This document shows positions 11,609 through 12,839 of a stretch of 12,839 nucleotides of DNA, one piece after another. Position 1 is the first letter of the stretch; every line of letters starts with the position of its first letter. Source of the DNA: Candidatus Odinarchaeia archaeon (GTDB taxonomy: Archaea; Asgardarchaeota; Odinarchaeia; Odinarchaeales; Odinarchaeaceae); assembly GCA_029856525.1 (NCBI GenBank), contig JAHQXC010000034.1:1-12839 (forward strand), read 5' to 3'. The notes under the pieces are model-generated. The model ran no database searches. It was not told the DNA's origin and saw only the letters and a program-made list of their open reading frames with translations. The translations under genes and the position numbers were made by a program.

Positions 11609-12196
11609 TTAACGGATAAGCTTCGGCTTACACCGCTGTTTTTTCAAAGCATCTACAAGCTGGTTAACGTTATCAATTCTATCAAGAAATTCAGTGCAAC
11701 ACCATCCGAACTCTGAAATATTATGCGCATCCGACCCGGCTGTAGCGGAAACATGCTTTTTTAAAGCTATTGTTAAAGCGTTTTCATCTATTTTAAATCT
11801 GGATCTATCCGAGACTTCAACACCATCCACATCTAGATCATAGACTCTCTCGCCTAGTTTAACAGGCCAAGACCTGAACGGGTGAGCTGCAACCACGGCA
11901 CCACCCTCACGGTGAACTGCTTCAATAATTATTTTAGCCGGTGTATAAGGTTGAAAAACATTATTTAAACCGTATATTAACAGTTCACCTTCTAAAACTG
12001 TTAGTTCATAGCCTAGAAAAACGGTTAAACCGTGTTTTTCAGCTTTTCTAAGCTCCTCGCTAAAATCCCCGATAACATTATGATCTGTTAAAACTACGCC
12101 GTCTAGACCATATGAGGGGGCTAATTCAAGTATCTCTGTTAAAGTTAACTCGGAGCAAGGGGAAATCTGAGAGTGAACGTGTAAATCTATTAGAAA
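11609..12196 (-). CDS. PHP-family metal-dependent phosphoesterase; start codon unresolved
   Basis: The frame of track ORF 11609..11896 stays open up to 12199. It adds (EF)LIDLHVHSQISPCS...GLDGVVLTDHN...GYE upstream of AAHPFR and AGSDAH, the characteristic PHP motif series. No ATG/GTG/TTG occurs between the in-frame TAA at 12202-12200 and 11896. Confidence 0.85.
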   Translation of the reverse strand, partial: FLIDLHVHSQISPCSELTLTEILELAPSYGLDGVVLTDHNVIGDFSEELRKAEKHGLTVFLGYELTVLEGELLIYGLNNVFQPYTPAKIIIEAVHREGGAVVAAHPFRSWPVKLGERVYDLDVDGVEVSDRSRFKIDENALTIALKKHVSATAGSDAHNISEFGWCCTEFLDRIDNVNQLVDALKKQRCKPKLIR

Positions 12197-12211
12197 TTCT
12201 TACACCCCCTT

Positions 12212-12835
12212 TTACACATCTCCAGTAATTCGATTAAGCCAGTTATCTATGTCTTTAATTAAATTATCAGCCTCCTCAGGGGGGATAGGCTTATTCCTAG
12301 GCATACGCTTAATTTTCTGAATCCACTCGTGCATCTCATAGAATACAGGGTGATGCGGAGTCCAGCTCATTAAAGTGTCACGGGTCTCCGCTATTTTAGC
12401 GATAAGATTAGCCGCCGGCGTCTGCTCGCCAACCGCTTTAGCTAGATTTTTTAAAATATTCTCTGTAGCTGTCCTATTAGCATCCCGCTTTATATAAACA
12501 GGAGTGGTCGCGTTAATTTCAACAGGAGGCTCCTCAACCTCTTGAATTTTGATTTCTTCAACGCTAGGTTTACTTTTAACAATCTTCTCTAATTCTAGCA
12601 CTCTTTCGATAAGCTTCTCCAATGCCTCTTTAGTAGTAAACCGTAAACCTCGTATAGAAACCTCTAAAGCCTCTATTTTCTTAACATTTTTTTGAAGCTC
12701 CTCGAATTGGTTTTGGAAACCGCCTAGTCTTTCAATAACACTTAAACCGAATCTCTCTAATGTATCCTTTATTTTAGTTAAGTTTTGAACAGTTTCGTTG
12801 AGAATATTTTTGACTTCAATAAGCGATTGATTCAA
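12212..12835 (-). CDS. Coiled-coil protein with C-terminal Vps28-CTD-like helical bundle (may extend beyond the window)
   Basis: 207-aa ORF from TTG 12835; the in-frame codon upstream is GGA, so the true start may lie outside the window. Heptad-rich N-terminal ~88 aa, Pro/Glu linker, then an ~84-aa helical domain containing EWIQKIKRM...IPPEEADNLIKDID. Confidence 0.78.
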   Translation of the reverse strand: MNQSLIEVKNILNETVQNLTKIKDTLERFGLSVIERLGGFQNQFEELQKNVKKIEALEVSIRGLRFTTKEALEKLIERVLELEKIVKSKPSVEEIKIQEVEEPPVEINATTPVYIKRDANRTATENILKNLAKAVGEQTPAANLIAKIAETRDTLMSWTPHHPVFYEMHEWIQKIKRMPRNKPIPPEEADNLIKDIDNWLNRITGDV

Positions 12836-12839
12836 TCCG

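What the first reader, a model, noticed from the sequence alone, without database searches (positions are those of the whole stretch)
12212..12466. Vps28 C-terminal-domain-like bundle on a coiled-coil protein
EWIQKIKRMPRNKPIPPEEADNLIKDIDNWLNRI aligns without gaps to the end of human VPS28 as I recall it (QWLQTLSGMSASDELDDSQVRQMLFDLESAYNAF). W, Q, M, D and N are identical and the hydrophobic register is kept; IAETRDTL also parallels LRELMETM in the preceding helix. Established: the Vps28 CTD four-helix bundle links ESCRT-I to ESCRT-II/III, and Vps28-like proteins are known in Asgard archaea. Unusual here: the N-terminus is a long coiled coil plus linker, and the visible downstream neighbours are PHP and mat genes, not ESCRT genes. 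It could be the ESCRT-I subunit itself or a separate paralogue that recruits ESCRT to another complex.
Basis: partly seen in the sequence, partly recalled or inferred. Interest (0 to 1): 0.72.

Follow-up and report, generated by a model that had tools for sequence, protein, structure and literature searches.

The report
Second Vps28-like adaptor in Odinarchaeia
This Odinarchaeial gene encodes a small coiled-coil protein whose tail is a true relative of the ESCRT-I Vps28 C-terminal domain, but it is an extra paralogue in a phosphoesterase operon, one more member of an already described Asgard set of Vps28-C adaptor proteins.

Summary
Window 12212-12838(-) encodes all but the first 12 residues of a 220-aa protein. 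It has a heptad-rich helix, a disordered linker and a confident C-terminal four-helix bundle.

The likeness to eukaryotic Vps28 alone is not significant (Pfam VPS28 E 0.03; PDB profile search E 0.23). Deeper tests support homology:
- hhalign of a 138-sequence domain family against 36 genuine Asgard Vps28 gives 94.5% probability and P 8e-8 over all four helices. Decoys give 3.3% or less.
- HMM hits inside the genome are reciprocal.
- The three best structural matches are all Vps28 C-terminal domains (Z 12.6-13.0).

It is not the ESCRT-I subunit. The genome has a bona fide Vps28 beside Vps22 and Vps25 on contig C85.

The full-length family was found only in Odinarchaeia. There it sits in a conserved operon between an alkaline-phosphatase-superfamily phosphodiesterase and a PHP phosphoesterase. 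In two other Asgard families that slot holds a GT2 glycosyltransferase.

The domain is widespread in Asgard (135 of 301 genomes; five proteins in this genome). Coiled coil plus Vps28-C was published for Thorarchaeota (Makarova 2024).

ESCRT docking is inferred only. This is a new member of a known kind, of moderate interest.

The parts
12212..12838 (-). ORF of the Vps28-C paralogue: residues 13-220 plus the stop codon. The first 12 codons lie beyond the contig end; the start codon is on contig C20.
12647..12838 (-). N-terminal long amphipathic helix or coiled coil (model residues 13-76 of 8-76). It contains the invariant Gly/Leu positions of the FGLSVI..LG stretch.
   Evidence: AlphaFold2; heptad test; conservation
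12575..12646 (-). Invariant RGLRFTTK motif and second helix (model residues 77-100). hhalign extends the Vps28 alignment back to here.
12494..12574 (-). Poorly conserved linker rich in Pro, Glu and Val, predicted disordered (model residues 101-127).
   Evidence: pLDDT under 50
12224..12493 (-). C-terminal four-helix bundle homologous to the Vps28 C-terminal domain (model residues 128-217). The profile-aligned core is 12227-12466.
11609..12190 (-). Downstream PHP/PHP_C phosphoesterase gene, same strand and same frame, about 21 nt after the stop. It is the third gene of the conserved phosphodiesterase / this gene / PHP operon.

Best explanation
The gene encodes a 220-aa paralogue of Vps28. The full-length family was found only in Odinarchaeia. 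The protein has three parts: an N-terminal heptad-rich helix that probably oligomerises, a flexible linker, and a C-terminal four-helix bundle homologous to the Vps28 C-terminal domain.

Shown:
- the three-part architecture;
- homology of the bundle to Vps28-C;
- that it is distinct from the genome's real ESCRT-I Vps28;
- the conserved operon with an alkaline-phosphatase-superfamily phosphodiesterase and a PHP phosphoesterase.

Inferred: it works as a modular adaptor. The coiled coil forms a stalk and binds the family's own partner, possibly the two operon enzymes. The tethered Vps28-C bundle is the docking module. By analogy with Vps28 it would dock on ESCRT-II or ESCRT-III, which would give ESCRT access without the core ESCRT-I. 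I put the ESCRT-docking step alone at about 0.35.
For: Family and architecture:
- Nine cluster representatives, all Odinarchaeia, 49-100% identical and about 219 aa.
- AlphaFold2 gives a helix at 8-76, disorder at 101-127, and four helices at 128-217 with pLDDT near 90 or above. The heptad signal is significant.

Homology of the bundle to Vps28-C:
- hhalign of the 138-sequence domain family against 36 genuine Asgard Vps28: 94.5% probability, P 8e-8, 80 columns. Reversed, column-shuffled and Vps22 decoys give 3.3% or less.
- hhalign of the Odin-only profile against Vps28: 94% over 137 columns.
- Among the genome's 3749 ORFs, the Vps28 HMM hits only the real Vps28 and this ORF (7.9e-5). The domain HMM hits the real Vps28 C-terminal domain (2e-7). 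That HMM holds no genuine Vps28.
- The family profile and Pfam VPS28 (over its cut-off) hit the same C-termini of ~800-aa Asgard proteins.
- Foldseek's top hits are 2j9w, 2j9v and 2g3k. VIA-align puts the same three on top at Z 13.0, 12.8 and 12.6; the next match scores 10.7.

Separate paralogue: the real Vps28, Vps22 and Vps25 are on contig C85.

Operon: conserved in two Odinarchaeial families, f1 and f2.

Literature: Asgard proteins carrying Vps28-C are proposed to reach ESCRT-II without ESCRT-I, and a Thorarchaeota protein with a 'BAR'-like N-terminal part and a C-terminal part matching the Vps28 C-terminal domain is listed (PMC10936438).
Against: - Direct matches to eukaryote-based models are below threshold: Pfam VPS28 14.4 bits against a cut-off of 24.5, and PDB sequences E 0.23. 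Eleven other family members show no Pfam VPS28 hit.
- Four-helix bundles are common. The aligner's own note says Z up to about 13 can arise for helical bundles.
- No ESCRT or ubiquitin gene is in the operon.
- Relatives carrying this domain sit in unrelated contexts: next to selenocysteine-synthesis genes, E2 enzymes, or fused to GTPases. The domain's partner may therefore differ from family to family.
- There is no binding, expression or oligomer data.
Confidence: 0.55

Rival explanations
1. ESCRT-independent scaffold. The bundle descends from the Vps28-C fold but now serves only as a subunit or organiser of the phosphodiesterase-PHP enzyme pair. In other Asgard families that pair flanks a GT2 glycosyltransferase. 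The protein would act in some sugar-phosphate, lipid or envelope pathway and have nothing to do with membrane remodelling.
For: - Tight operon, with gaps of about 24 and about 21-35 nt, conserved in two Odinarchaeial families.
- In the sampled loci of families f19 and f7, the slot between the phosphodiesterase and PHP genes holds a ~240-aa GT2 glycosyltransferase instead.
- PHP lacks its own canonical start codon, which suggests coupled translation.
- Other carriers of the domain lie in non-ESCRT contexts, for example between SepSecS and PSTK.
Against: - The domain family keeps the features it shares with genuine Vps28 C-terminal domains: the His-Pro at the start of helix 3 and the Trp in helix 4.
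- Published analysis ties Vps28-C domains to ESCRT (PMC10936438).
- Gene neighbourhood alone does not show binding.
Confidence: 0.3
2. It is the ESCRT-I Vps28 subunit of this organism.
For: The length and three-part layout resemble Vps28. A weak colinear BLASTP match to the Odin Vps28 exists (E 0.028).
Against: - A Vps28 that passes the Pfam cut-off (48.7 bits) lies on contig C85, directly upstream of Vps22 and facing Vps25.
- Both genes co-occur in every well-assembled Odinarchaeial genome searched.
- The first ~96 residues of this protein show no profile similarity to the Vps28 N-terminal core (2% probability).
Confidence: 0.03
3. Chance or convergent likeness: a generic four-helix bundle with no common descent from Vps28-C.
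For: - Sub-threshold Pfam and PDB sequence scores.
- Many generic bundles (BRIL, HPt, FAT domains) score Z 9-10.7.
Against: - Profile-profile P 8e-8, with decoys at or below 3.3% probability.
- Reciprocal, genome-specific HMM hits.
- All three best structural matches are Vps28 C-terminal domains.
- Transitive link through the ~800-aa proteins.
Confidence: 0.07

Closest known systems
Vps28 (ESCRT-I), C-terminal domain; Pfam PF03997; PDB 2J9W, 2G3K, 2J9V, 2J9U
   Same: - A four-helix bundle of about 90 residues at the C-terminus, on a flexible linker behind a helical N-terminal part.
- Total length of about 220 aa.
- Profile-profile homology to Asgard Vps28.
- Best structural matches.
   Different: - Fails the Pfam cut-off.
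- The N-terminal ~96 residues show no similarity to the Vps28 core or steadiness box.
- Not encoded with Vps22, Vps23 or Vps25.
- Coexists with the real Vps28.
- Lies in a phosphoesterase operon.
Asgard multidomain Vps28-C proteins of Makarova et al. 2024 (mBio, PMC10936438), in particular Thorarchaeota KXH73277.1: 'BAR'-like residues 1-110 plus residues 155-235 matching 2J9U_A
   Same: - Same layout and size: a coiled-coil N-half and a Vps28-C bundle at the end.
- The Thorarchaeial proteins I recovered (221-233 aa) match the window family's domain at E 1e-12 to 1e-15. They are probably that published family, though I could not fetch the accession.
   Different: - The N-terminal halves are not alignable with the Odin family, and the RGLRFTTK motif is Odin-only.
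- The Thorarchaeial genes sit beside a Zn-ribbon protein and an E2 enzyme, not beside phosphoesterases.
- The Odin family was not found in the stored (cut) supplement text of that paper that I searched.
NCBIfam NF045535 'Sel_Asgard' (putative selenocysteine system protein)
   Same: It is the best curated sequence hit for the C-terminal domain: E 3.5e-5, 23.8 bits, model positions 130-188 of 195. It is a ~220-aa Asgard protein that ends in the same kind of domain. The window family's profile hits it.
   Different: - The score is far below the 132-bit cut-off.
- Odinarchaeial genomes carry a separate true Sel_Asgard gene elsewhere.
- Its context differs: between SepSecS and PSTK in one Asgard family, and about 7 kb from a Vps28 gene in most sampled genomes of another.

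Membership tests
Vps28, ESCRT-I subunit (Pfam PF03997) | Whole-protein score over the Pfam gathering cut-off (24.5 bits) | tested here: not met
   14.4 bits, E 0.032; 12.8 bits in the six-frame genome search.
Vps28, ESCRT-I subunit (Pfam PF03997) | C-terminal four-helix bundle homologous to the Vps28 C-terminal domain | tested here: met
   hhalign 94.5%, P 8e-8, with decoy controls; reciprocal HMM hits; Vps28 C-terminal domains are the top three structural matches, Z 12.6-13.0.
Vps28, ESCRT-I subunit (Pfam PF03997) | N-terminal Vps28 core (steadiness-box hairpin) that joins the Vps23 headpiece | tested here: inconclusive
   No profile similarity for residues 1-96 (2% probability). AlphaFold2 draws one long helix, not a hairpin, but a monomer model cannot exclude a hairpin in a complex.
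Vps28, ESCRT-I subunit (Pfam PF03997) | Encoded with ESCRT-II/ESCRT-I genes and present as the genome's Vps28 orthologue | tested here: not met
   The orthologue is on C85 with Vps22 and Vps25. This gene's neighbours are a phosphodiesterase, PHP and SAM synthetase.
Vps28, ESCRT-I subunit (Pfam PF03997) | The C-terminal domain binds ESCRT-II (or ESCRT-III) | not testable with these tools
   Needs pull-down, SEC or two-hybrid assays with Odinarchaeial Vps22, Vps25 and ESCRT-III.
Asgard Vps28-C-domain adaptor proteins (Makarova et al. 2024) | Asgard protein with a terminal domain of profile-level similarity to Vps28-C, joined to a different N-terminal module | tested here: met
   The domain is C-terminal in nearly all of 148 clusters, and coiled coil is the usual N-terminal partner.
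NCBIfam NF045535 Sel_Asgard | Score over the curated cut-off (132 bits) across the 195-position model | tested here: not met
   23.8 bits, positions 130-188 only. True members lie elsewhere in Odin genomes.

The most novel reading that the evidence does not exclude
In Odinarchaeia this Vps28-like coiled-coil protein physically couples a phosphodiesterase/PHP enzyme pair to ESCRT-II or ESCRT-III. Alternatively, it is the undetermined factor that Hatano et al. 2022 proposed to bridge ESCRT-I and ESCRT-II in Odinarchaeota. Either way, phosphoester turnover on a lipid, glycan carrier or protein would be linked to membrane remodelling, an archaeal forerunner of phosphoinositide-style control of sorting.
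Probability: 0.1. Interest if true: 0.7.

Novelty: new member of a known kind. Interest (0 to 1): 0.4.

Why it matters
Asgard archaea are the closest known relatives of eukaryotes, and how ESCRT-I, II and III are wired together in them is still open. In Odinarchaeota the link between ESCRT-I and ESCRT-II was not found experimentally (PMC9192718).

This 1.3-Mb genome carries five proteins with a Vps28-C-type domain: the real Vps28, this one, two more coiled-coil forms, and an Arf-like GTPase fusion. That supports the view that Vps28-C is a reusable docking module.

It also gives thermostable, small, expressible candidates for binding tests.

This family is databased only as 'hypothetical protein', and Pfam does not detect the domain in it. 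The annotation itself is therefore useful, though the concept is not new.

Tried and rejected
- Complex prediction of the C-terminal domain (alignment A4) with Odin Vps22 (alignment A6) gave no verdict: ipSAE 0.00 and 0.01 against a mark of 0.32, and the controls were not run. This counts neither for nor against binding.
- No RNA run is listed for this DNA, so I did not lay reads.
- A Pfam scan of 12 family members gave no VPS28 hit, only coiled-coil families.
- A PDB sequence-profile search found nothing significant.
- An ESM Atlas search with the N-terminal half gave only generic long helices.
- A glycosyltransferase that seemed to carry the domain (P0136) is a repeat-driven false hit, so it gives no fusion link to the GT2 that fills the operon slot in other Asgards.
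- The search for related loci with the domain alignment failed for lack of conserved words. With A1 it returned only two Odinarchaeota records.
- The Makarova supplements are stored cut. A search for Odinarchaeial locus tags found no mention of this family.
- I considered a MIM-like reading of the helix after RGLRFTTK and dropped it, because the register does not fit the MIM1 pattern. This was by eye, with no tool.

Full report
**The gene.** The window is the whole of contig C47 of a 1.32-Mb Odinarchaeial assembly in 127 contigs (organism names). On the minus strand, 12212-12838 is an open frame that runs off the contig end. Its exact product occurs on a 9.1-kb public contig (P0002). That contig, together with the start of contig C20, shows that only 12 codons are missing. 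C20 begins with the end of the upstream gene, a GGTGA ribosome-binding site and the ATG. The gap between C20 and C47 is 18 nt. The real protein has 220 residues.

**Family.** A word-indexed search of 5.8 billion proteins found nine cluster representatives. All those named are Odinarchaeota, they are 49-100% identical, and they are 214-221 aa long apart from one with an over-long start call. Sixty-two columns are invariant. They include an RGLRFTTK motif and a run spanning the end of helix 2 to the start of helix 3 of the C-terminal domain. Full-length matches in 301 Asgard genomes are confined to two families, f1 and f2, which are the Odinarchaeia.

**Architecture.** AlphaFold2 with an 18-sequence alignment gives:
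- one long helix at 8-76;
- a short helix at 82-100;
- an unstructured stretch at 101-127 (pLDDT under 50);
- four helices at 128-217 with pLDDT about 90-96.

Hydrophobic residues fill 14 of 19 heptad a/d positions in residues 8-76. Only 6 of 2000 shuffles reach that count.

**Is the bundle Vps28-like? Sequence evidence.**

The raw likeness is weak:
- A profile of the domain against all PDB sequences places Xenopus Vps28 only fourth, at E 0.23.
- An Odin-only profile against six Odin Vps28 gave 26% probability.

I therefore widened both sides:
- An exhaustive HMM search with a 13-sequence domain alignment found 148 clusters at E up to 1e-3. The domain is almost always at the very C-terminus. 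None of these clusters is a genuine Vps28.
- Pfam VPS28 run over 121 Asgard genomes gave genuine Vps28 genes. I extracted 36 of them.
- hhalign of the 138-sequence domain family against these 36 gives 94.5% probability, P 8e-8, and 80 aligned columns covering all four helices with one 3-residue gap.
- Reversed, column-shuffled and Vps22 decoys reach at most 3.3%.

Two further lines agree:
- Within this genome's 3749 ORFs, the Vps28 HMM hits only the true Vps28 and this ORF (7.9e-5). The domain HMM hits the C-terminal domain of the true Vps28 (2e-7).
- The Odin family profile and Pfam VPS28 (over its cut-off) hit the same C-termini of ~800-aa Asgard proteins, for example G103:C44 and G040:C36.

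**Is the bundle Vps28-like? Structural evidence.** Foldseek's best PDB matches are 2j9w, 2j9v and 2g3k, all Vps28 C-terminal domains (E 0.015, probability 1.0). VIA-align ranks the same three on top at Z 13.0, 12.8 and 12.6, with 92-95 residues aligned at 2.6-3.1 A. Generic bundles follow at 10.7 and below. The aligner warns that helical bundles can reach such Z values, so I treat this as support, not proof. Sequence and structure together make homology likely, at about 0.9.

**Not the ESCRT-I subunit.**
- Contig C85 carries a Vps28 scoring 48.7 bits over the whole Pfam model. A Vps22/EAP30 gene follows it directly, and a Vps25 gene faces it.
- The genuine Vps28 and the present family co-occur in four of the six Odinarchaeial genomes sampled besides G000: G001, G013, G044 and G053. 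In each of the other two, one of the pair was not found.
- The first ~96 residues of the present protein show no profile similarity to the Vps28 N-terminal core.
- hhalign does extend the match back to the helix after RGLRFTTK (137 columns, 94%). That hints that the whole C-terminal two-thirds descends from a Vps28-like ancestor.

**The wider picture.**
- The domain occurs in 135 of 301 sampled Asgard genomes.
- This genome has five carriers: the true Vps28; this protein; a 203-aa coiled-coil form on C24; a 319-aa coiled-coil form on C65; and a 365-aa protein on C118 with an Arf/Ras-like GTPase before the domain.
- Longer carriers elsewhere are mostly longer coiled coils.
- Thorarchaeial proteins of 221-233 aa have the same layout. 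They fit the entry in Table S3 of Makarova et al. 2024, where KXH73277.1 has a 'BAR'-like part at 1-110 and residues 155-235 match 2J9U_A.
- That paper states that Asgards hold many proteins with Vps28-C, and that these may reach ESCRT-II without ESCRT-I.
- The best curated sequence hit for the domain is NCBIfam Sel_Asgard (23.8 bits against a cut-off of 132). This is another ~220-aa family with the same kind of ending. It lies between SepSecS and a PSTK-like kinase in one Asgard family, and about 7 kb from a Vps28 gene in most sampled genomes of another.

**Context.**
- In LCB_4, in this genome, in two further genomes of its genus (G013, G024), and in the second Odinarchaeial family, the gene lies between a 428-aa alkaline-phosphatase-superfamily phosphodiesterase and a ~190-aa PHP/PHP_C phosphoesterase. 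All three genes are on one strand, with gaps of about 24 and 21-35 nt.
- The phosphodiesterase is widespread in Asgards (63 of 121 genomes). In the sampled loci of families f19 and f7 it is again followed by PHP, but the gene between them is a ~240-aa GT2 glycosyltransferase with no trace of the domain. Odinarchaeia have therefore placed the Vps28-like gene in the slot of a conserved enzyme module.
- No ESCRT or ubiquitin gene is in this operon.
- The JAB protease set further along the window is a separate transcription unit beyond the convergent SAM synthetase gene. Another agent has already covered it.

**Mechanism.** My best reading is a modular adaptor. The coiled coil forms a stalk and carries the family-specific surface: the invariant glycines and the RGLRFTTK motif. 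The linker gives reach. The Vps28-C bundle is the docking end. That it docks on ESCRT-II or ESCRT-III is an analogy with Vps28 and with the published proposal, and it is not shown here. The main rival keeps the homology but makes the protein a subunit of the phosphoesterase module with no ESCRT role.

**Verdict.** The family is unannotated and its operon is new to me, but the kind of protein (Vps28-C on a coiled coil in Asgard) is published. I rate it a new member of a known kind, with interest 0.4.

Noticed in passing
window 12185-12214 (-); L066:10660-10700: The PHP gene has no ATG, GTG or TTG before its HxH metal motif in three of the four Odinarchaeial genomes compared (two of the five aligned sequences come from this genome). 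It follows the Vps28-like gene in the same frame, behind two TAA stops and a GGGGGT box. A conserved AT[A/C]-GAx-TTx-CAC (I-D-L-H) suggests either an ATA/ATC start or reinitiation. Only LCB_4 has TTG at the Leu codon.
   Followed up: partly
G000:C24:7952-8560 (-), L034: A second small protein (203 aa) with a coiled coil, a V/P/E linker and a Vps28-C-like bundle. It scores E 2.5e-22 with the domain HMM. It lies between a Rieske ferredoxin gene and an unknown gene. An earlier first-reader note (e1-5449311) describes it.
   Followed up: partly
G000:C118:2505-3599 (-), L035: A 365-aa protein with an Arf/Ras-like small GTPase domain (residues 114-263) and a Vps28-C-like end (305-364, E 7e-7). This fuses a GTPase to the ESCRT-type docking domain.
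   Followed up: partly
G000:C65:16320-17276 (-), L081:4321-5250: A 310-319-aa coiled-coil protein that ends in the same domain (E 1e-7). It sits among deaminase, GNAT and ATP-grasp genes.
   Followed up: no
L093-L098, L102, L104-L106: A three-gene module of phosphodiesterase, GT2 glycosyltransferase and PHP is conserved in two other Asgard families (the GT2 was recovered in six of these nine loci). In Odinarchaeia the middle gene is the Vps28-like protein instead. The module's function is unknown.
   Followed up: partly
L075-L080; G001:C1:279972-280529: NCBIfam 'Sel_Asgard' (putative selenocysteine system protein) ends in a Vps28-C-like domain. It lies between SepSecS and a PSTK-like kinase in one Asgard family and about 7 kb from a Vps28 gene in most sampled genomes of another. 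Its model also covers the last ~195 residues of ~800-aa proteins that pass Pfam VPS28. No true member was found in this assembly, which is 93% complete.
   Followed up: partly
L010, L016, L030: The Thorarchaeial coiled-coil/Vps28-C genes are followed by a ~215-aa protein with a C-terminal zinc ribbon. In two of the three loci scanned (L010, L030) they are divergently paired with a ubiquitin-conjugating E2 (UQ_con). Yeast Vps28 C-terminal domain binds a zinc finger of Vps36.
   Followed up: no
window 12839 / G000:C20:1-70: Contigs C47 and C20 are neighbours separated by an 18-nt gap inside this gene. A public 9.1-kb contig bridges them.
   Followed up: yes
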